Of a stretch of DNA of 64,000 bases, positions 9,636 through 43,587 are shown one piece after another. The notes under the pieces are model-generated. The model saw only the letters and a program-made list of their open reading frames with translations, had not been told where the DNA came from and searched no databases. Origin of the DNA: an uncultured Alloprevotella sp. GTDB taxonomy: Bacteria > Bacteroidota > Bacteroidia > Bacteroidales > Bacteroidaceae. Position numbers and translations under genes: made by a program. Positions within the stretch are counted from its first letter, which is position 1. Every line of letters begins with the position of its first letter. Where the stretch lies: positions 466 to 64,465 of the forward strand of contig CALUNU010000013.1 in NCBI GenBank assembly GCA_944322095.1, given 5' to 3'.

Positions 9636-10244
9636 ATGATAGTCAAGACTGCCGATTTCGTGGTGAGCAACAGCCGCGTGGAGGCCTGCCCGCACGACGG
9701 GCGGCCCGAATATGCCTTTATCGGGCGGAGCAACGTGGGCAAGAGCAGCCTGGTAAACATGCTGACGGGGCGCCGCGCGCTGGCCATGACGTCGGCCACG
9801 CCGGGCAAGACGCTCCTGGTGAACCATTTCCTCATCAACGGCGAATGGTATCTGGTGGATTTGCCGGGATATGGTTACGCACGCCGCGGCAAGCGCGAGC
9901 AGGAACGCCTGCGCCGCCTCATATCGGCCTATGTGCTGGGGCGGGCCGAACTGACGTGCCTTTTTGTGCTCATCGACAGCCGTCTCGAGCCGCAGCGCAT
10001 CGACATGGAGTTCATCACGTGGCTGGGCGAGAACGGCGTGCCCTTTGCCATCGTGTTTACCAAGGCCGACAAGCCCCGCCCCGGGCAGCTCAAAGGCGGC
10101 GTGGAGCGCTTCATGGCCGAGCTCTCCAAGACGTGGGAGACGTTGCCGCCCCATTTCGTCACGAGCAGCGCCACCGGTCGCGGCCGCGAGGAGCTGCTGG
10201 CGTACATCGAGGAAGTGAATACTCAATTGACAATTGATAATTGA
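9636..10244 (+). CDS. engB: Ribosome biogenesis GTP-binding protein YihA/YsxC (202 aa)
   Basis: G1 GRSNVGKS, G3 DLPGYG, G4 TKAD. Start moved to the ATG at 9636. The C-terminal QLTIDN is encoded by the heptamer repeat. Confidence 0.95.
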
Positions 10245-10410
10245 CAATTGACAATTGGCAATTGGCAATGAACAATGAGCGATGGACATTAGAGAATGGT
10301 TTATTCCCGGTAGAGACTGCTCCGGGCCCGGATGGCAATTGTCAATTATCCATTGTCAATTGTCAATTCTCAAAGCCCAATTATAAATTATAAATTGTCA
10401 ATTATAAATT
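10224..10410. repeat. Inverted heptamer-array element: (ACAATTG)n, short core, (CAATTGT)n
   Basis: caattga caattga taattga caattga caattgg caattgg on the left, and caattgt caattat ccattgt caattgt caattct on the right. About 60-bp core containing a CCCGG/CCGGG stem. Confidence 0.85.
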
Positions 10411-36665: not shown

Positions 36666-39293
36666 ATGACGAAACGCATTTTGCTCCTCAGCCTGCTGAC
36701 GCTCCTGCCCTTCGGCCTGAAAGCCGCGGGCGGGAGCGATGCTGAAGCGCTGTTCCGGCGCTTCCGCGAAGCCGCCCGCTTCGACTTCAACTACCCGCGC
36801 GAGCGCGTTTACCTGCATCTCGACAACAATGCCTACGTGGAGGGCGAGACCATCTGGTTCAAGGCCTACGTCATGCGGGCGTCGAGCCTGGCGGCCTCGG
36901 CGCTGAGCCGCGTGCTCTACGTCGAGCTGCTCAACGCCGACGGCGAACTGATGGAACGCAAGCTGCTGCGCGTGGAAAACGGGCAGGCTGCGGGCGAGCT
37001 GTCGCTGCAGCTGCCTGTGCGTTCGGGCTATTACGAGGTGCGCGCCTATACGCGCGAAATGCTCAACTGGGGGCCGGCCGTTTGCTTCTCGCGCGTGGTG
37101 CCCGTGTTCCGGCGCGCGGCCGACGGCGGCCCGGCCTCGCCGCTCACCATCGACCGCCCGATGGCCGAAAGCGACCTGGCGCCGTCGCACGCACGGCCAT
37201 ACAGCTTTCCGAAGGCCGGCGGCGCGAATATGGCCTTCTTTCCCGAAGGGGGCAACCGCGTAGAGGGGCTCGCGCAGCGCATTGCCTTCAAGCTGACCGA
37301 CGACCGCGGCTATGCCCTGGCCGACTCGTGCGAGCTCTTTGCCGACGACGGCACGCGGCTGGGCGCCTTCCGGCCGCAGCACGAGGGCATGGGCGTTTTC
37401 ACGGCGCCGGCCGCCATGGGGCGGGGCAGCGTCGTGGTGCACCACGGTGGAGAAACGATACGTTTCGACCTGCCGGCCGCCGCGCCCTCGGGCTACGTGA
37501 TGACCGTCGGGGCCGGGGGCGAAGGATGCAGCGTGGTGGTGGAGCGAAGCGCCGGCGAAGCGCCCCGTTTGCTGGGCCTGCTCGTGGCATGCCGCGACCA
37601 GGTGTGCCATTTCGACACGCTCACCGTGACCGACGGCGCCGTGGAGCTGCTCATCCCCGGCGAGGCGCTGCGCACGGGCGTGAACCGCATCGAACTGTTC
37701 GACGCCGACGGGCGCAGCCTGTGCAGCCGCCTGCTTTTCAAGCGGGGCAGCGAACGCACCCTGCGGCTCGACGTGCGCCAGAACGAGGAACGCTATGCAG
37801 CCTTTGCCCCCGTGGCGCTCGAAATGTATCTGAGCGACGCCGAAGGCCGGCCCGCACAGGGCACCTTCTCGCTCGCCGTGCGCGATGCCGCGAGCGAACT
37901 GGTGGCCTCGCCCGAGGCCTCGCTCGACGCCGAACTGCTGCTGGCGTCGGAGGTGAAGGGCTACGTGGCCCGGCCCGAATATTATTTCGAAGCCGACGAC
38001 GCTGCCCACAACCGGGCGCTCGACCTGCTGCTGATGGTGCAGGGCTGGACGGCCAACGACTTTGAGACGCTTTGCGGCGCCCGGCCCATGCGCATTGGCC
38101 AGCCCATCGAGGAGAAGCTCACGCTGGACGGCCGCATCCTGCACGACAACGACAAGCAGAAGCCGCGGCCCGGTGCCGAGGTGGGCCTCTTCATGTACAC
38201 CCGGGCCGGAGCCGCCATGCGCTCGCGGGCCGTGACCGACAGCGTGGGAGGCTTTACCTTTGTGTCGGAGGAGGACTACACCGGCCGCTGGATTGGCCAG
38301 TTTTCTATCACGGAAGAGGGCAAGAACAAGTGGAGCCGCGTGGCCCTGAACCGATGGTTCGACCCCGCGCCGCGGCCTTTCAGCTTTCGCGAGCTCGAAC
38401 TGACGCCGCCCGACACCGTGCGCCGCAGCCGCCCCGTACCACGCGAGGATCTGTTTGCCTGGACCGACACGCTGCCCACCTATCAGCGCATCGACTTGGG
38501 AACGGCCGAGGTGACCACCCGAAACCGCTACCGCGGGCTGACGGGCAACCGCTATTCGTACCAAGGGGGCGAAAAGGCCGGGGCCGCACGCGCGCGCATC
38601 TTCTACAACGTGGAGCGCGACCTGGAACGCCGCAAGGACGAGGGGCGGGGAGTGCCTTATATCTGGGACTTTCTGAAGGAGAAGAACGAGGATATCTATT
38701 ATGAGTATGCCACCGACACGACCGACCCCTACGTAAAAGGCTTTTTCGAAGCCATCGGCGACGTGGGGCAGGCCCCGGGCGACGTCATCCTGCCCTACTA
38801 CAAGGGCCGCCCGGCCGTGGTGTTTCTCGACAACGACCTGCTCTTGCAGCGCAAGAAGATGGACAACGGCCTGATGCTGGCCGACGAAATAAAGTCGGCC
38901 GTGGTCATTGAGAACCAGGACGACTGGGAAAACTTCCTGCCGTCGAAGAGCTTCACCTTTGCAGGCGGCAACATCGGCAACTACCGGCCGGCGGCCATCT
39001 TCCTTTATTCGAACCCCGACTTCGCCCTGATGCGCACCAAGAAGGGGGTGGAGAAACGCATCATCTACGGCTTTTCCATCCCGAAGCGCTTCTACTCGCC
39101 CAACTACCGGGGCATCGACCTGCCCTCGGCCGACGACGTGCGCCGCACGCTCTACTGGAACCCCTCGGTGACGGCCGACGAGGCAGGCAAGGCCACAGCC
39201 GTCTTTTTCAACAGCAGCCACGACGGCGCGCGGCTGCGCATTTCGGTGCGCGGTGTGACGACGGAGGGGCGTTTCGTCGGCTTCGATCGCTGA
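36666..39293 (+). CDS. Large secreted protein with MG2-like N-terminal domain (875 aa)
   Basis: Signal peptide, ERVYLHLDNNAYVEGETIWFKAYV, LDLLLMVQGW, C-terminal FYSPNY..DVRRTLYWNP, typical of a Bacteroidota family of unknown function. Confidence 0.65.
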   Translation: MTKRILLLSLLTLLPFGLKAAGGSDAEALFRRFREAARFDFNYPRERVYLHLDNNAYVEGETIWFKAYVMRASSLAASALSRVLYVELLNADGELMERKLLRVENGQAAGELSLQLPVRSGYYEVRAYTREMLNWGPAVCFSRVVPVFRRAADGGPASPLTIDRPMAESDLAPSHARPYSFPKAGGANMAFFPEGGNRVEGLAQRIAFKLTDDRGYALADSCELFADDGTRLGAFRPQHEGMGVFTAPAAMGRGSVVVHHGGETIRFDLPAAAPSGYVMTVGAGGEGCSVVVERSAGEAPRLLGLLVACRDQVCHFDTLTVTDGAVELLIPGEALRTGVNRIELFDADGRSLCSRLLFKRGSERTLRLDVRQNEERYAAFAPVALEMYLSDAEGRPAQGTFSLAVRDAASELVASPEASLDAELLLASEVKGYVARPEYYFEADDAAHNRALDLLLMVQGWTANDFETLCGARPMRIGQPIEEKLTLDGRILHDNDKQKPRPGAEVGLFMYTRAGAAMRSRAVTDSVGGFTFVSEEDYTGRWIGQFSITEEGKNKWSRVALNRWFDPAPRPFSFRELELTPPDTVRRSRPVPREDLFAWTDTLPTYQRIDLGTAEVTTRNRYRGLTGNRYSYQGGEKAGAARARIFYNVERDLERRKDEGRGVPYIWDFLKEKNEDIYYEYATDTTDPYVKGFFEAIGDVGQAPGDVILPYYKGRPAVVFLDNDLLLQRKKMDNGLMLADEIKSAVVIENQDDWENFLPSKSFTFAGGNIGNYRPAAIFLYSNPDFALMRTKKGVEKRIIYGFSIPKRFYSPNYRGIDLPSADDVRRTLYWNPSVTADEAGKATAVFFNSSHDGARLRISVRGVTTEGRFVGFDR

Positions 39294-39327
39294 TTTGTCG
39301 ATATAACAGAAAAAAAGCGGATGAAAA

Positions 39328-39359
39328 TTTGGCAGTAAGGCCGGAAAGCTCTACATTTG
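39328..39359 (+). promoter_or_regulatory. Promoter of the phe/tyr operon
   Basis: TTTG (39328-39331), 20-nt spacer, TACATTTG (39352-39359). Confidence 0.75.
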
Positions 39360-39386
39360 CCACGAACAAACAAGAAAACAGCGACC

Positions 39387-39473
39387 ATGACAATGTCTGC
39401 TTCCTACTTTTTCGGTTTTTATTTTTACTTTGCCGGGCAAGCGAAGCGGGACGTTGCGTGCGTTAGGAAATAA
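39387..39473 (+). CDS. pheL: Phe/Tyr-rich attenuator leader peptide MTMSASYFFGFYFYFAGQAKRDVACVRK (28 aa)
   Basis: Five Phe and three Tyr codons in a 9-codon stretch (39405-39431), located between the promoter and a terminator upstream of pheA. Confidence 0.85.
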   Translation: MTMSASYFFGFYFYFAGQAKRDVACVRK

Positions 39474-39489
39474 AAATAAGAACCAATCG

Positions 39490-39527
39490 CGAAAATCCCG
39501 CTCCCACCCGGAAGCGGGATTTTTCGT
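39490..39527 (+). terminator. Attenuator terminator hairpin
   Basis: CGAAAATCCCGCT-CCCACCCGGA-AGCGGGATTTTTCG followed by T-rich sequence. The 5' arm can alternatively pair with GAAGCGGGA at 39443-39451. Confidence 0.85.
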
Positions 39528-39543
39528 TCAAACCAAGCAACAG

Positions 39544-40374
39544 ATGAAGACAATAGCGATACAAGGCGTTGAGGGCTCGTTTCACGACATGGCCGCCCAC
39601 CGATATTTCCCGGGCGAAGAAATCAAGCTGGTGTGCTGCAACACGTTCGAAGACGTGTTTGGCAGCATGGAGCACGACCGCGAAATGCTCGGCATGGTGG
39701 CCATCGAAAACACGATAGCCGGCAGCCTGCTCCACAACTACGAGCTGCTGCGCGCCAGCGGGAAGGTCATTGTGGGCGAATACAAGCTGCACATCGAGCA
39801 CAGCCTGCTCTGCCTGCCCGACGACAACTGGGACACGATTGCCGAGGTCCACTCGCACCCGGTGGCCCTGGCCCAGTGCCGGCAGTTCCTGCAAGCTCAC
39901 CCGGCAATGCGTGCCGTCGTGGCCGACGACACGGCCGGCGCCGCCGAAGCCATAGCCCGCGACCGTATGCGCGGGCATGCCGCCATCTGCTCGGCAGATG
40001 CCGCGCCGCTCTACGGCATGAAGGTGCTCCAACAGGCCATCGAGGACAACAAGCACAACTATACGCGCTTTCTGCTGGTGAGCGACCCGCTCTTTGCCAA
40101 CGATTTGCGCACGCCCGACCGCACGGACAAGAGTTCGATTGTCTTTACCTTGCCGCATGAAGAGGGCAGCCTCTCGCAGGTGCTCTCCATCTTTACCTTC
40201 TACAAAATCAACCTGACGAAAATACAGTCGTTGCCCATCGTTGGCCGCGAGTGGGAATATCTGTTCTACATCGACGTGACGTACAGCGACTATCTGCGCT
40301 TCCGGCAGAGCATCGAAGCCGTGCGCCCCCTGACGAAACAACTGAAAATACTCGGAGAATATGCAGCTTGTTGA
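39544..40374 (+). CDS. pheA: Prephenate dehydratase with ACT domain (276 aa)
   Basis: MKTIAIQGVEGSFH, AIENTIAGS, SHPVALAQC, NYTRF, NLTKIQSLP. Confidence 0.95.
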   Translation: MKTIAIQGVEGSFHDMAAHRYFPGEEIKLVCCNTFEDVFGSMEHDREMLGMVAIENTIAGSLLHNYELLRASGKVIVGEYKLHIEHSLLCLPDDNWDTIAEVHSHPVALAQCRQFLQAHPAMRAVVADDTAGAAEAIARDRMRGHAAICSADAAPLYGMKVLQQAIEDNKHNYTRFLLVSDPLFANDLRTPDRTDKSSIVFTLPHEEGSLSQVLSIFTFYKINLTKIQSLPIVGREWEYLFYIDVTYSDYLRFRQSIEAVRPLTKQLKILGEYAAC

Positions 40375-41566
40375 GAAAAAAACATGCGCCATTCGCCCCG
40401 CCGACCGCCTGGCGACCGTGAGCGAATATTATTTCAGCCGAAAAGGCAAGGAAATAGCCCGTCTGAACGCCGCCGGGCAGGACATCATCAGCCTGGCCAT
40501 AGGGAGCCCCGACATGCCACCCTCGCCCGAGACGGTCGAAACCCTCTGCCGCGAGGCACGCCGCGACGATGCCCACGGCTATCAGCCGACGGCGGGCACG
40601 CCCGAGCTGCGCCGCGCCATGAGCGGCTTCTACAAGCGTTGGTATGGGGTGGAGCTCGACCCCGCCAGCGAGATACAGCCGCTCATCGGCTCGAAGGAGG
40701 GCATCCTGCACGTCACGCTGGCTTTTGTGAACCCCGGTGAGCGCGTTCTGGTGCCCAATCCCGGCTACCCCACCTACACATCGCTGAGTCGCCTGCTGGG
40801 CTGCGAGGTCGTCTATTACGACTTGCGCCCCGAGCTGGGCTGGCAGCCCGACTTTGACCAGCTGGAAAACATGGATCTTACGGGCGTGCGCCTTTTGTGG
40901 AGCAACTACCCGCACATGCCCACCGGGGCCCCCGCACGCATGGAGACCTACGAGCGCCTGGTCGGCTTTGCCCGCCGCCACGGCATCGTCGTCGTCAACG
41001 ACAATCCGTACAGCTTCATCCTCAACCGCGAGCGCAGGAGCCTGCTCCAAGTGGACGGTGCCAAGGAATGCTGCATCGAGTTCAACTCGATGAGCAAGAG
41101 CCACAACATGCCGGGCTGGCGCGTGGGCATGCTGGCCTCGAACGCCGAGTTTGTCAGCTGGGTGCTCAAGGTGAAGAGCAACATCGACTCGGGCACGTTC
41201 CGCCCGCTCCAACTGGCCGCCGCCCGTGCCTACGAAAACAGCGAGGCCTGGCACATCGAAGCCAACGTCAACGTATATGCCCGCCGGCGCCATCTGGCCG
41301 GCGCCATCATGGACGCCCTGGGCTGCACCTGCGACCCCGCCCAGGTGGGCATGTTCCTGTGGGGCCGCATCCCCGATGCATATGCCGACGCCGAGGAGCT
41401 CACCGAGCGCGTGCTCCGCGAGAGCCGCGTGTTCATTACGCCGGGCTTCATCTTCGGCTCGAACGGCAGGCGCTATGTGCGCATTTCCCTCTGTGCAAAA
41501 GAAGAAAGAATGGCCGAAGCCCTCGGCCGCATCCGCGATACGTTCAACACATTATCCACCCGTTAA
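40361..41566 (+). CDS. PLP-dependent class I/II aminotransferase
   Basis: IGSPD, GSKEG, PNPGYP, NYPHMPTG, DNPY, SMSKSHNMPGWRVG. Confidence 0.9.
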   Translation: MQLVEKKTCAIRPADRLATVSEYYFSRKGKEIARLNAAGQDIISLAIGSPDMPPSPETVETLCREARRDDAHGYQPTAGTPELRRAMSGFYKRWYGVELDPASEIQPLIGSKEGILHVTLAFVNPGERVLVPNPGYPTYTSLSRLLGCEVVYYDLRPELGWQPDFDQLENMDLTGVRLLWSNYPHMPTGAPARMETYERLVGFARRHGIVVVNDNPYSFILNRERRSLLQVDGAKECCIEFNSMSKSHNMPGWRVGMLASNAEFVSWVLKVKSNIDSGTFRPLQLAAARAYENSEAWHIEANVNVYARRRHLAGAIMDALGCTCDPAQVGMFLWGRIPDAYADAEELTERVLRESRVFITPGFIFGSNGRRYVRISLCAKEERMAEALGRIRDTFNTLSTR

Positions 41567-41578
41567 AACATCTTGACC

Positions 41579-42649
41579 ATGGAACTCCATCTTGAACCCT
41601 TGCGTCTCCCGGGCATCGACCCGAAGCGCCCCGTTGTCGTCGCCGGCCCCTGCTCGGCCGAGACCGAAGAACAGGTGATGACCACCGCCACGCAGCTCTG
41701 CAAGAAGGGCATCAAAATATTCCGCGCGGGCATTTGGAAACCCCGCACCAAGCCCGGCGGCTTCGAGGGCGTGGGCACGGTGGGCCTGCCGTGGATGCAG
41801 CGCGTGCAGCAGGAGCTGGGCATGCTCGTGGCCACTGAGGTGGCTACGCCGCGCCACGTCGAGGCTGCCCTCGAAGCAGGCATCGACCTGCTCTGGGTGG
41901 GCGCACGCACGGTGGCCAACCCGTTTGCCATGCAGGAACTGGCCGACTCGCTGCGCGGCGCCGACGTGCCCGTGCTGGTGAAAAACCCCGTCAACCCCGA
42001 CCTTGAGCTCTGGATTGGTGGCCTGGAACGCATCAACGGGGCGGGCATCACGCGCCTGGGCGTCATCCACCGCGGCTTTTCGTCCTACGACAAGAAGCTC
42101 TACCGCAACCTGCCCATGTGGCACATCCCCATTGAGCTCCACCGCCGCATCCCGGCGCTGCCCATCTTCGGCGACCCGAGCCACATCGGCGGCAAGCGCG
42201 AGCTCATAGCCCCGCTCTGCCAGCAGGCCATGGACCTGGGCTTCGACGGCCTCGTGGTGGAAAGCCACTGCTGCCCCGACGAGGCGTGGAGCGACGCCGC
42301 CCAGCAGGTGACGCCCGACGTGCTCGACTTCATCCTCGACAAGCTCGTCATCCGCGAGGCGACGCAGAGCACCGAAAGCCTGGAAACCCTGCGCAGGCAG
42401 ATTGATGAATGCGACAACTCCATCCTCGAACTGCTGGCGCGTCGCATGAGAGTAAGCCGCGAAATCGGCTTGTACAAGCGCGAACACAACATGACCGTCG
42501 TGCAGGCCAGCCGCTACTCGGAGATACTCGAAAAGCGCGGCGCGCAGGGCGTGCTCTGCGGCATGAGCGCCGAGTTTATGAAAGCTGTCTTCGAGGCCAT
42601 CCACGAAGAAAGCGTGCGCCAGCAGATAGAAATCATGAACAAGGAATAA
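41579..42649 (+). CDS. Bifunctional DAHP synthase / chorismate mutase
   Basis: AGPCSAE, RAGIWKPRT, VGARTVANPF, IHRG, DPSHIGG, DGLVVESH, then a CM domain (LRRQIDECDNSILELLARRM). Confidence 0.93.
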   Translation: MELHLEPLRLPGIDPKRPVVVAGPCSAETEEQVMTTATQLCKKGIKIFRAGIWKPRTKPGGFEGVGTVGLPWMQRVQQELGMLVATEVATPRHVEAALEAGIDLLWVGARTVANPFAMQELADSLRGADVPVLVKNPVNPDLELWIGGLERINGAGITRLGVIHRGFSSYDKKLYRNLPMWHIPIELHRRIPALPIFGDPSHIGGKRELIAPLCQQAMDLGFDGLVVESHCCPDEAWSDAAQQVTPDVLDFILDKLVIREATQSTESLETLRRQIDECDNSILELLARRMRVSREIGLYKREHNMTVVQASRYSEILEKRGAQGVLCGMSAEFMKAVFEAIHEESVRQQIEIMNKE

Positions 42650-42662
42650 ACAGACAGGAAAG

Positions 42663-43436
42663 ATGCGTATCCTCATATTGGGAGCAGGCAAGATGGGCTC
42701 GTTCTTCGTCGACCTGCTCAGCTTCGACCACGAGACGGCTGTCTACGACGTCGACCCGCGCCGCCTGCGCTTCATGTACAACACGCAGCGCTTCACGCAA
42801 GCCGAGGAAATCGAGGCCTTCCGCCCCGAACTGGTGATTAACGCCGTGACGCTCGAACGCACGCTCGACGTGTTTCGCAGCGTCGTCCCCTTGCTGCCGC
42901 CCGACTGCATCATCAGCGACATCGCCTCGGTGAAAACGGGCCTGAAAGACTATTACGACACGTGCGGCCGCCGCTACGTGTCGACCCACCCCATGTTCGG
43001 CCCCACCTTTGCCAACCTCGGGGCGCTCAGTTCCGAAAACGCCATCGTCATCTCCGAGGGCGACTATATGGGGCGCATCTTTTTCAAGGATCTCTACGCG
43101 CGCCTCGGTCTTCACGTGTGCGAATACACGTTCGACGAGCACGATGAAACCGTGGCCTATTCGCTGAGTATCCCCTTCGTCTCCACATTCGTCTTTGCCG
43201 CCGTCATGAAGCACCAGGACGCGCCGGGCACCACCTTTAAGCGCCATCTGCAAATAGCCAAAGGCGTGCTGGGCGAGGACGACTGCCTGCTGCGCGAAAT
43301 TCTGTTCAACCCGCGCACGGGCGGCCAGGTGTCGAAAATTCGCGACGAGCTGACCGCCCTGCTCGACATCATAGACCGCCGCGACGCAGGGGCCCTCGAC
43401 GCCTACTTGCAGCGTATCCGCGGCAATATAAGGTGA
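42663..43436 (+). CDS. tyrA: Prephenate dehydrogenase
   Basis: ILILGAGKMG Rossmann fold, DIASVK, HPMFGP, EHDETVAY. Confidence 0.93.
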   Translation: MRILILGAGKMGSFFVDLLSFDHETAVYDVDPRRLRFMYNTQRFTQAEEIEAFRPELVINAVTLERTLDVFRSVVPLLPPDCIISDIASVKTGLKDYYDTCGRRYVSTHPMFGPTFANLGALSSENAIVISEGDYMGRIFFKDLYARLGLHVCEYTFDEHDETVAYSLSIPFVSTFVFAAVMKHQDAPGTTFKRHLQIAKGVLGEDDCLLREILFNPRTGGQVSKIRDELTALLDIIDRRDAGALDAYLQRIRGNIR

Positions 43437-43442
43437 CAGTGG

Positions 43443-43587
43443 AGAATTGACAATTGACAATTGAGAATTGACAATTGACAATGTGCAATGGAGGGTTGAC
43501 AGAGGACAATTGAGAGCAAGTGCTTTTCAATTGTCCTCTGTCCATTCCTAATTGTCAATTGTCCATTGTCCATTGTCAATTGAATTC
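43443..43587. repeat. Second inverted heptamer-array element with long central hairpin
   Basis: gaattga caattga caattga gaattga caattga on the left and taattgt caattgt ccattgt ccattgt caattga on the right. Perfect 16-bp inverted repeat at 43498-43513 / 43527-43542. Confidence 0.88.

What the first reader, a model, noticed from the sequence alone, without database searches (positions are those of the whole stretch)
39328..39543. Complete Phe/Tyr ribosome-mediated attenuator controlling pheA-aminotransferase-DAHP synthase/chorismate mutase-tyrA
All parts are visible. There is a consensus promoter, then a 28-codon leader with Y-F-F-G-F-Y-F-Y-F, and an intrinsic terminator at 39490-39527. An antiterminator strand GAAGCGGGA (39443-39451) duplicates the terminator's 3' arm and lies just downstream of the control codons. 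A ribosome stalled on Phe or Tyr codons would leave 39443-39451 free to sequester TCCCGCT (39496-39502), while one reaching the stop at 39471 would cover it. The mixed Phe and Tyr codons match the two branches encoded by the operon. The mechanism is classic in Proteobacteria; I know of little experimental evidence for it in Bacteroidota, and the leader is missed by the ORF track.
Basis: partly seen in the sequence, partly recalled or inferred. Interest (0 to 1): 0.7.

Follow-up and report, generated by a model that had tools for sequence, protein, structure and literature searches.

The report
Phe/Tyr leader-peptide attenuator before pheA
A short upstream reading frame packed with phenylalanine and tyrosine codons, followed by a terminator and a competing RNA pairing, very probably switches this gut Bacteroidales bacterium's Phe/Tyr biosynthesis operon on when those amino acids run short; it is conserved in relatives but is an ordinary mechanism already predicted in this phylum.

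Summary
There is a Bacteroidetes-type promoter (TTTG 39328-31, TAcaTTTG 39352-59). A 28-codon leader ORF (39387-39473) carries Y-F-F-G-F-Y-F-Y-F. A box, GAAGCGGGA (39443-51), repeats the terminator's 3' arm. An intrinsic terminator (39490-39527) lies 19 nt before pheA.

The downstream genes are prephenate dehydratase, an aminotransferase, DAHP synthase/chorismate mutase and prephenate dehydrogenase.

In 78 of 80 orthologous Prevotellaceae/Bacteroidaceae loci the same architecture precedes pheA. The F/Y reading frame is kept in 79/79 leaders despite indels. The box is conserved in every frame, translated or not. Terminator, antiterminator and a hairpin joining the last Tyr-Phe codons to the box all show covariation.

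A covariance model built without the window hits it at 95.8 bits (E 1e-16), once in 64 kb.

No experiment was available, and the RNA contigs were uninformative.

Novelty is modest. Rfam has no family for it. However, Guérin et al. 2021 described the same FY-rich pheA leader, with terminator/antiterminator hairpins, in Flavobacterium psychrophilum, and a Trp leader (Bacteroid-trp) is already curated for the phylum.

Verdict: a new member of a known kind; interest about 0.3.

The parts
39328..39331 (+). -33 element TTTG of a Bacteroidetes-type promoter
   Evidence: Read directly from the sequence. It lies 20 nt before the -7 element. It is also part of the weak sigma-70-like hit TTGGCA-17-TACATT. 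Function is inferred; no TSS data.
39352..39359 (+). -7 element TAcaTTTG (consensus TAnnTTTG)
   Evidence: In 71 of 79 related leaders a TAnnTTTG lies 21-45 nt (median 28) before the leader ATG. The TSS is inferred to be near 39365.
39387..39473 (+). Leader ORF, 28 codons plus TAA: MTMSASYFFGFYFYFAGQAKRDVACVRK. A second in-frame ATG is at 39393.
   Evidence: An F/Y-rich leader ORF is present in 78/80 orthologous loci. An ATG-started open frame in the F/Y frame is found in 79/79, against 4/79 and 1/79 in the other two frames.
39405..39431 (+). Control codons Y-F-F-G-F-Y-F-Y-F (5 Phe, 3 Tyr)
   Evidence: Across 79 leaders the median is 5 Phe and 5 Tyr per leader, with only 4 Trp in total. The final TAC TTT is invariant.
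39428..39433 (+). Region 1, the 5' strand of the anti-antiterminator. CUUUGC (end of the last Tyr codon, the last Phe codon and 2 nt more) pairs with GCGAAG at 39441-39446.
   Evidence: RNAalifold hairpin at columns 59-63 with 78-82, with AU 34, GU 20 and GC 16 at the closing pair. Clade-specific versions are 6-14 bp long. In the window's own MFE fold a longer pairing, 39383-39405 with 39443-39466, also sequesters the box.
39441..39451 (+). Region 2, the antiterminator box GCGAAGCGGGA (core AGCGGGA). It copies the terminator's 3' arm.
   Evidence: Identical to 39511-39519 over 9 nt. Complementary to the terminator's 5' arm in all 79 leaders, mean duplex -18.9 kcal/mol. Covariation is shown. 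It is conserved in all three reading frames and whether or not it is translated.
39490..39502 (+). Region 3, the terminator's 5' arm CGAAAAUCCCGCU (core TCCCGCT at 39496-39502). It is the shared partner of the box and of region 4.
39513..39527 (+). Region 4, the terminator's 3' arm AGCGGGAUUUUUCG, with the T run at 39520-39524
   Evidence: The hairpin is -22.3 kcal/mol. The terminator helix is 91% paired across 79 sequences, with 59 double-change cells against 21 in shuffles.
39544..40374 (+). pheA, prephenate dehydratase (276 aa), the first structural gene
   Evidence: PF00800 E 1e-54; NF008865 E 1e-62.
40361..41566 (+). Class I/II aminotransferase (401 aa). It overlaps pheA by 14 nt.
   Evidence: PF00155 E 9e-58. 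The best NCBIfam hits are aminotransferase subfamilies, all below their cut-offs.
41573..42649 (+). Bifunctional DAHP synthase / chorismate mutase. The ORF as listed starts at a TTG; the true start was not determined.
   Evidence: PF00793 plus PF01817.
42663..43436 (+). Prephenate dehydrogenase (tyrA-like, 257 aa), the last gene of the operon
   Evidence: PF02153 E 1e-9; NF006409 E 8e-16, below its cut-off.

Best explanation
This is a ribosome-mediated (leader-peptide) transcription attenuator. It sets read-through into pheA-aminotransferase-DAHP synthase/chorismate mutase-tyrA according to how well tRNA-Phe and tRNA-Tyr are charged.

Transcription starts about 20 nt before the leader ATG, from a TTTG/TAnnTTTG promoter. 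The leader RNA can fold in two mutually exclusive ways:
- the box GCGAAGCGGGA (region 2) pairs with the terminator's 5' arm (region 3), which is the antiterminator; or
- region 3 pairs with region 4 to form the terminator.

Three states follow.
1. Without a ribosome, the box is held by region 1, which is the last Tyr-Phe codons (in this window also the start of the ORF). The terminator then forms.
2. With ample Phe and Tyr, the ribosome runs through the control codons and over the box to the stop codon. That keeps the box away from region 3 while region 4 is being made, so transcription ends at the T run 39520-39524.
3. When Phe-tRNA or Tyr-tRNA is scarce, the ribosome stalls on 39405-39431 and melts region 1 but leaves the box free. 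The box captures region 3 as it emerges, the terminator cannot form, and the operon is transcribed.

Shown here: every sequence element, its conservation, reading-frame preservation, and covariation of all three helices. Inferred: the TSS, translation of the leader, stalling, and the kinetic order of folding.
For: Anatomy of the window.

Operon content.

Conservation:
- 78/80 orthologous loci have an F/Y-rich leader ORF.
- 79/79 leaders have a terminator hairpin, mean -18.6 kcal/mol, 5-50 nt before pheA.

Antiterminator:
- A box complementary to the terminator's 5' arm is present in all, mean -18.9 kcal/mol, z -3.9.
- 84.7% of cells are paired against at most 47.6% when the partner is slid. 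There are 32 double-change cells against 14.9 +/- 2.7 in shuffles, 0/500 reaching the observed value. One example is AU 57 / GC 14 at a single pair.

Terminator: 91% paired; 59 double-change cells against 21 in shuffles.

Region 1:2 hairpin, with covariation.

Cognate against non-cognate duplexes: -17.9 vs -13.9 kcal/mol for 1:2, and -18.7 vs -17.0 for 2:3 (p about 1e-10 to 1e-12).

The box is constrained as RNA, not as peptide. It occurs in frames 2, 0 and 1, and in 16 loci it lies at or after the stop codon.

The ORF is constrained as a reading frame. The F/Y frame is open in 79/79 leaders across N-terminal lengths of 11-18 codons.

Family membership: model R1, built without the window, hits 39405-39529 at 95.8 bits. 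It hits 83/84 loci once each, always before pheA.

Published analogue: a pheA leader with conditional read-through in Flavobacterium psychrophilum (PMC9723704). It shows the same box/terminator logic when refolded here.
Against: - There is no experimental evidence for this organism or for any Bacteroidales relative. Metatranscriptome contigs cover both the leader and pheA, but they give no usable ends or depth ratios.
- In the window itself the antiterminator is weaker than in relatives. It has 7 contiguous pairs plus an A.C mismatch. The duplex is -13 to -16 kcal/mol, z only -1.1 against shuffles, and no better than non-cognate pairings. The mismatch is conserved in the window's own lineage.
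- The terminator is thermodynamically stronger than the antiterminator (-22.3 vs about -17.6 kcal/mol). The switch therefore has to be kinetic, which is assumed and not shown.
- The position of the stop codon relative to the box ranges from -9 to +37 nt. How a terminating ribosome blocks the antiterminator therefore cannot be the same in every member.
- Bacteroidota lack Shine-Dalgarno-led initiation. Tight transcription-translation coupling has not been demonstrated for them, to my knowledge.
Confidence: 0.85

Rival explanations
1. The RNA switch is real but is driven by something other than a translating ribosome. A protein, an uncharged tRNA or a metabolite would bind the box or the U-rich run, and the F/Y reading frame would be a by-product of the U-rich sequence needed for pairing.
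For: The final TTTTACTTTTACTTT is conserved at the nucleotide level and pairs with the box. Some of its conservation is therefore RNA-driven. No direct evidence of translation was obtained.
Against: - An ATG-started open frame in the F/Y frame exists in 79/79 leaders, although indels give seven different N-terminal lengths. The other frames are open in only 4/79 and 1/79.
- F/Y codons further upstream, outside the hairpin, are also enriched.
- There is no T-box or riboswitch hit, even at E up to 10.
- The amino acids encoded match the operon's products.
Confidence: 0.06
2. Control is post-initiation but not by intrinsic termination. Leader translation would modulate Rho-dependent termination or mRNA stability, or the hairpin would mainly affect pheA translation, since it ends only 19 nt before the pheA ATG.
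For: The hairpin lies 5-50 nt from the pheA start in relatives. One relative, L036, lacks a clear T run. A published analysis ranks Bacteroidota as intermediate in its Rho dependency scores, below Actinobacteria, Proteobacteria and Spirochaetota and above Firmicutes (PMC13613805).
Against: In 78 of 79 leaders the GC-rich stem is followed directly by a T run, the signature of an intrinsic terminator. Bacteroidota 3' stem-loops are reported to deviate little from typical intrinsic terminators (PMC13613805). The pheA start codon itself is not inside the stem.
Confidence: 0.05
3. The hairpin is simply a constitutive terminator or insulator for the upstream gene (36666-39293), and the F/Y ORF encodes a small hydrophobic peptide with a function of its own.
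For: No separate terminator is visible between the upstream gene's stop (39293) and the promoter. One RNA contig from the upstream gene runs to 39361.
Against: - The element always sits directly before pheA, although the upstream neighbours differ.
- The C-terminal half of the peptide is not conserved as protein. The frame varies, and in 16 loci the stop comes at or before the box.
- The box-terminator complementarity and its covariation would have no purpose under this reading.
Confidence: 0.02

Closest known systems
Flavobacterium psychrophilum pheA-aspC3 leader-peptide attenuation element (Guérin et al. 2021, ISME Commun, PMC9723704, Table S7 and SI Appendix D9)
   Same: - Same phylum and the same operon head (pheA followed by an aminotransferase).
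- A 27-codon leader with a mixed F/Y run (..FYSNNSFYFYW..).
- A purine-rich GGGA box about 8 nt after the run, complementary to the terminator's 5' arm (-14.7 kcal/mol when refolded).
- A terminator AATCCCG...CGGGATTTTTTT with the same core as here.
- The authors drew terminator/antiterminator hairpins and reported read-through under specific conditions, with highest operon expression in minimal nutrient media.
   Different: - Different class (Flavobacteriia against Bacteroidia).
- Its box is AGGAAGGGAUUG rather than GAAGCGGGA.
- Its run ends in Trp.
- Sequence similarity outside the cores is low.
- That element has transcriptome support; the one here has none.
Escherichia coli pheA leader pheL / Rfam Phe_leader RF01859
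   Same: It works the same way: a short ORF with a run of control codons, 1:2, 2:3 and 3:4 alternative pairings with the control codons inside region 1, and an intrinsic terminator before pheA. It is the best Rfam hit to the window.
   Different: - The hit scores only 27.3 bits against a gathering score of 55, so by Rfam's criterion this is not a member.
- pheL carries Phe codons only and controls pheA alone, whereas here Phe and Tyr codons alternate and the operon also holds tyrA and DAHP synthase/chorismate mutase. The description of pheL is from my own knowledge of the E. coli system.
- The promoter type differs, and there is no Shine-Dalgarno sequence.
Bacteroid-trp motif, Rfam RF01692 (Weinberg et al. 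2010, PMC2864571)
   Same: A curated cis-regulatory motif from Bacteroidetes for an aromatic amino-acid operon. That it acts as a Trp leader-peptide attenuator is from my own memory. The Flavobacterium study lists a WWW leader before trpE.
   Different: It has different control codons and a different operon. The window gives no hit to it at E up to 10.

Membership tests
Ribosome-mediated (leader-peptide) transcription attenuators | A short ORF in the 5' leader with clustered codons for the pathway's end product(s) | tested here: met
   A 28-codon ORF with 8 F/Y in 9 consecutive codons. The operon encodes Phe and Tyr branch enzymes. The feature is conserved in 78/80 loci.
Ribosome-mediated (leader-peptide) transcription attenuators | An intrinsic terminator between the leader ORF and the first structural gene | tested here: met
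   Stem 39490-39502 with 39513-39526 plus a T run, -22.3 kcal/mol. Present in 79/79 relatives. Covariation.
Ribosome-mediated (leader-peptide) transcription attenuators | An antiterminator pairing that excludes the terminator by using its 5' arm | tested here: met
   Box 39441-39451 with 39496-39505. 84.7% paired across 79 sequences, with compensatory changes. It is weaker in the window itself (7 bp plus an A.C mismatch).
Ribosome-mediated (leader-peptide) transcription attenuators | An anti-antiterminator (1:2) pairing whose 5' strand lies in or next to the control codons, so that a stalled ribosome releases region 2 | tested here: met
   The last Tyr-Phe codons pair with the 5' half of the box. 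The box is paired to an upstream partner in 72/79 MFE folds. Cognate pairings are stronger than non-cognate ones.
Ribosome-mediated (leader-peptide) transcription attenuators | The leader ORF is under selection as a reading frame | tested here: met
   The F/Y frame is open from an ATG in 79/79 leaders across seven N-terminal lengths, against 4/79 and 1/79 for the other frames.
Ribosome-mediated (leader-peptide) transcription attenuators | The leader is translated, and read-through rises when the cognate aminoacyl-tRNA is limiting | not testable with these tools
   Only assembled RNA contigs were available, and they give no ends or conditions. No experiment on Bacteroidales was found in the papers searched.
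Rfam Phe_leader RF01859 | A score at or above the family's gathering threshold (55 bits) | tested here: not met
   27.3 bits, E 0.045. No Rfam family reaches its threshold in 10 related loci.
Rfam Bacteroid-trp RF01692, and T-box leaders | Any match to the covariance model | tested here: not met
   Neither appears among the matches at E up to 10 in 38800-40000.
   Window 39405-39529: 95.8 bits, E 1.2e-16, model positions 1-130 of 130, the only real hit in 64 kb. 83/84 loci have one hit each, all before pheA.

The most novel reading that the evidence does not exclude
The element belongs to a phylum-wide RNA family that is not yet curated. It runs from Flavobacteriia to Bacteroidia and is absent from Rfam 15. 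A single leader reads two aminoacyl-tRNA pools at once (Phe and Tyr, about five codons each, and almost never Trp) to control a combined pheA-tyrA-DAHP synthase operon. Its strict conservation would also be indirect evidence that Bacteroidota, which lack Shine-Dalgarno-led initiation, couple the first ribosome to RNA polymerase tightly enough for attenuation to work.
Probability: 0.6. Interest if true: 0.45.

Novelty: new member of a known kind. Interest (0 to 1): 0.3.

Why it matters
- **Annotation.** It fills a gap. Gene callers and Rfam leave the 250-nt region before pheA empty in Prevotellaceae and Bacteroidaceae, which include abundant gut genera. The element explains how these bacteria could tune aromatic amino-acid synthesis without a known repressor.
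- **A variant of the textbook case.** Mixed Phe/Tyr control of an operon holding both branches plus the common first step differs from the Phe-only E. coli leader.
- **Practical use.** It could serve as a native sensor of Phe/Tyr charging in Bacteroides or Prevotella engineering.
- **A test case.** It is well defined enough to ask whether transcription and translation are coupled in this phylum.
- **Limits.** It does not change the understanding of attenuation itself.

Tried and rejected
- **Rfam.** Only sub-threshold hits to Phe_leader, Thr_leader and Trp_leader, driven largely by the terminator. Nothing reached a gathering score in 10 related loci.
- **RNA evidence for the window.** Metatranscriptome runs that hold the window are kept only as assembled contigs. 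The pieces cover 39320-39422, 39407-39583 and 39386-40054, so the leader and pheA occur on common RNA-derived contigs. Depths are contig means and DNA carry-over cannot be excluded.
- **RNA evidence for a relative.** The same approach on Phocaeicola plebeius (L049) gave a unitig break inside the leader, depth 198 against 34. The break is not at the terminator, and the contig extends upstream of the promoter. I judged both sets inconclusive.
- **Literature.** Nine full-text searches found no mutational or reporter test of a leader-peptide attenuator in Bacteroidales. The B. thetaiotaomicron transcriptome paper only notes sORFs 'reminiscent of leader peptides', and its held supplements contain no FY-rich peptide. 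Vitreschak et al. 2004 is not held.
- **An alternative region 1:2.** The Rfam alignment suggested that the U-rich codon run pairs with the A-rich spacer 39470-39484, 14 bp in the window. It does not touch the terminator, and the spacer is not conserved in sequence or length, so I did not adopt it.
- **Other attenuators in the window.** A scan for short ORFs with amino-acid runs followed by a terminator found only this one.
- **Source organism.** Only chicken-gut and other faecal metagenome records carry the gene. The best species representative in GTDB has 75% PheA identity.
Full report
**1. What is in the sequence**

The intergenic region 39294-39543 lies between an 875-aa gene with a faint MG2-domain hit (36666-39293) and a prephenate dehydratase gene (39544-40374). 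Reading it directly gives the following.

- TTTG at 39328-39331 and TAcaTTTG at 39352-39359, 20 nt apart. This is the Bacteroides -33/-7 promoter pattern. The sigma-70 scan reports the same site weakly, as TTGGCA-17-TACATT.
- An A-rich stretch without a Shine-Dalgarno sequence.
- ATG at 39387, with a second in-frame ATG at 39393, opening a 28-codon ORF: MTMSASYFFGFYFYFAGQAKRDVACVRK, stop TAA at 39471-39473.
- The run Y-F-F-G-F-Y-F-Y-F at 39405-39431.
- GAAGCGGGA at 39443-39451.
- A hairpin, CGAAAAUCCCGCU (39490-39502) with AGCGGGAUUUUUCG (39513-39526). Its 3' arm contains the T run 39520-39524. The pheA ATG follows 19 nt later.

**2. The genes controlled**

Pfam and NCBIfam identify four genes:

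| Coordinates | Product |
|---|---|
| 39544-40374 | prephenate dehydratase |
| 40361-41566 | class I/II aminotransferase, overlapping pheA by 14 nt |
| 41573-42649 | DAHP synthase fused to chorismate mutase |
| 42663-43436 | prephenate dehydrogenase |

The operon therefore holds the common first step of the pathway, the branch point, both the Phe and the Tyr branch, and the shared transaminase.

**3. Folding of the window's leader**

- The 171-nt leader folds to -52 kcal/mol, z = -3.7 against dinucleotide shuffles. It forms two hairpins: 39383-39405 paired with 39443-39466, and the terminator.
- The terminator alone is -22.3 kcal/mol.
- If the RNA is cut before region 4 and the control-codon region is removed, as behind a stalled ribosome, the box pairs with 39496-39505 and the fold is -17.6 kcal/mol.
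- The three alternative states of a classical attenuator are thus available. The antiterminator is less stable than the terminator, so it would have to win kinetically.

**4. Relatives**

The window's PheA has metagenomic relatives at 99, 92, 80 and 76% identity, followed by thousands at about 70-75%. A scan of one genome per GTDB species returned 80 loci from Prevotellaceae and Bacteroidaceae with 65-75% identity. Genera include Prevotella, Segatella, Alloprevotella, Prevotellamassilia, Paraprevotella, Phocaeicola and Bacteroides.

In 78 of the 80 loci a short ORF with 6-10 F/Y residues in ten lies roughly 145-260 nt before pheA. Examples:

- MKALYNTYFFFFYYFYFSNKVKREFVCVR (Phocaeicola)
- M..SFYYFYFYFASNCEAGSCV (Prevotella/Segatella)
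- MLTNAFYFYGFYFYFAGQAERDVACQHQ (Prevotellamassilia), the type closest to the window

The 79 leaders analysed below are these 78 plus the window. Every one has a GC-rich hairpin, mean -18.6 kcal/mol. In 78 it is followed by a T run, 5-50 nt before pheA.

The window's own lineage, at 92% and 80% PheA identity, keeps the leader almost unchanged.

**5. Evidence that the ORF is read as a frame**

- An ATG-started open frame in the F/Y frame exists in 79/79 leaders. The distance from the ATG to the last Phe codon takes seven values, 11-18 codons.
- The other two frames are open in only 4 and 1 of 79.
- Phe (424) and Tyr (352) dominate the composition, with a median of five each per leader. Trp occurs 4 times in all.

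**6. Evidence that the box is an RNA element**

- The core GCGG(G) lies a median of 14 nt after the last Phe codon.
- It is conserved whichever frame it falls in: frame 2 in 48 loci, frame 0 in 24 and frame 1 in 7.
- In 16 loci the leader stops before or inside it. The conserved 'KRD/KRE' and 'CEAG' peptide endings are therefore the same nucleotides read in different frames.

**7. The three helices, tested across relatives**

*Antiterminator (box with the terminator's 5' arm).*
- A duplex is found in every leader, mean -18.9 kcal/mol, z -3.9 against shuffled boxes.
- On a MAFFT alignment (A2), 84.7% of cells are paired, against at most 47.6% when the partner is slid by 1-3 columns.
- There are 32 double-change cells against 14.9 +/- 2.7 in column shuffles, with 0 of 500 shuffles reaching the observed value.
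- One pair reads AU in 57 sequences and GC in 14. Another reads GC in 54 and AU in 5.
- Single cases are telling: AGCAGGGCG pairs with CGCCCTGCT in L014, and TGTGAAGCGG with CCGCTTCACA in L066, L076 and L080.

*Terminator.* 91.0% of cells are paired, against at most 57.7% when slid. There are 59 double-change cells against 21.2 +/- 4.1.

*Anti-antiterminator.*
- RNAalifold on all 79 leaders finds CUUU(R), which is the last Tyr-Phe codons plus one base, paired with (Y)GAAG of the box. The closing pair is AU 34, GU 20, GC 16.
- Clade-wise alignments extend this hairpin to 6-14 bp. It covers most of the box in Prevotella, with AU 11 / GC 5 at one pair.
- In 72 of 79 MFE folds the box core pairs with an upstream partner. 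That partner lies a median of 19 nt before the end of the F/Y run.

*Cognate against non-cognate.* Cognate partners bind better than partners taken from other loci, both for 1:2 (-17.9 vs -13.9 kcal/mol) and for 2:3 (-18.7 vs -17.0).

The column shuffles ignore phylogeny, so these numbers are not probabilities. The slid-partner control and the individual compensatory cases point the same way.

**8. Family membership**

A covariance model built from 39 relatives, with the window left out, matches the window at 39405-39529. The score is 95.8 bits, E 1.2e-16, over the full model length. The only other matches in the 64 kb window are the reverse strand of the same palindromic terminator and a 15-bit chance match.

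The model finds exactly one hit in 83 of 84 loci, always directly before pheA. These include loci that were not used to build it.

**9. Mechanism**

The best explanation is the classical one.
- No ribosome: region 1 holds the box, and the terminator forms.
- Fast translation: the ribosome passes over the box and the terminator forms.
- Stalling on the Phe or Tyr codons: region 1 is occupied and the box is free. It captures the terminator's 5' arm as that arm emerges, and RNA polymerase reads through.

With the stop codon 39471 in the A site, a ribosome protects about 39454-39485. It therefore stands between the box and region 3 rather than on the box. It would still keep the two apart, but by a different geometry.

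Across relatives the stop lies anywhere from 9 nt before to 37 nt after the start of the box core. This part of the model cannot be uniform across the family. I regard it as inferred.

The window's antiterminator is also among the weakest in the family. It has 7 contiguous pairs and an A.C mismatch that is mirrored in its own terminator and conserved in its lineage.

**10. What is known already**

- Rfam 15 has no family for the element. The best hit is the proteobacterial Phe_leader at 27.3 bits against a threshold of 55. Ten related loci give nothing at gathering scores.
- The kind is not new to the phylum. Weinberg et al. 2010 listed the Bacteroid-trp motif (RF01692) and cite Vitreschak et al. 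2004. As I recall, that paper predicted attenuators in Bacteroidetes/Chlorobi. It is not held, so I could not check.
- Ryan et al. 2020 noted sORFs 'reminiscent of leader peptides' in long B. thetaiotaomicron 5' UTRs.
- Guérin et al. 2021 is the most relevant paper. [quoted passage not shown] The authors mapped the TSS, drew terminator/antiterminator hairpins, saw read-through under specific conditions, and found no Rfam hit.
- I refolded their sequence. It has the same plan: a GGGA-containing box 8 nt after the run, complementary to the 5' arm of an AATCCCG...CGGGATTTTTTT terminator (-14.7 kcal/mol), with the control codons pairing to the box.
- I found no mutational or reporter test in any Bacteroidota.

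**11. RNA data**

The window's sequence occurs in chicken-gut and other faecal metagenomes and in some metatranscriptomes. Those runs are available only as assembled contigs. They show RNA-derived contigs spanning the leader, the terminator and pheA (39407-39583; 39386-40054). They give no transcript ends and no reliable depth ratios. A second attempt on Phocaeicola plebeius was equally uninformative.

**12. Verdict**

It is a new, Bacteroidales-wide member of a known kind. Its distinguishing trait is mixed Phe/Tyr control of an operon that carries both branches.

Interest is modest at about 0.3. It is useful for annotation and for curating an Rfam family, and it offers a clean system for testing attenuation and transcription-translation coupling in Bacteroidota. 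It would not surprise a specialist.

Noticed in passing
window 43434-43582 and 10227-10408: Directly after the tyrA stop codon there is an array of the heptamer TGACAAT (7 copies, 43434-43483), faced by the inverted array AATTGTC (43527-43582). Together they fold into one long hairpin of -74.3 kcal/mol, z -9.1. A second element of the same kind lies at 10227-10408. Matches to TTGACAATTGACAAT with up to 2 mismatches number 25, against 0.06 expected, and all fall in these two places. It could be a REP- or MITE-like repeat or an operon-end terminator.
   Followed up: partly
L060 (uncultured Bacteroidales RUG14251) and L070 (RUG14814), upstream of pheA: These are the two exceptions among the 80 orthologous loci. 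L060 has no leader and no model hit; pheA there follows another gene closely. L070 has a degenerate leader, MAFMYTFTLATSKSEAVCVKK.., with few F/Y codons, yet it still matches the RNA model at 57.7 bits. It may be a decaying or re-tuned attenuator.
   Followed up: partly
window 39443-39451, 39496-39505 and 39510-39519; L083, L084 and L085: In the window's lineage the same A.C mismatch occurs in both the antiterminator and the terminator. The box CGAAGCGGGA and the 3' arm GGAAGCGGGA are 9/10 identical. The mismatch is conserved down to 80% PheA identity. Most other clades have a compensated pair at that position: AU in 57 sequences and GC in 14.
   Followed up: partly
whole window; leader 39360-39530: The window is 61% G+C, which is high for gut Bacteroidales, while the leader region is 46%. 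The organism is known only from chicken-gut and other faecal metagenomes.
   Followed up: no
window 36666-39293 (+): The upstream neighbour is an 875-aa protein with no NCBIfam hit and only a faint MG2 (alpha-2-macroglobulin-type) domain match. It is syntenic with the pheA leader in the window's close relatives (L083-L085) but not in more distant ones. No terminator is visible between its stop codon and the leader promoter.
   Followed up: no
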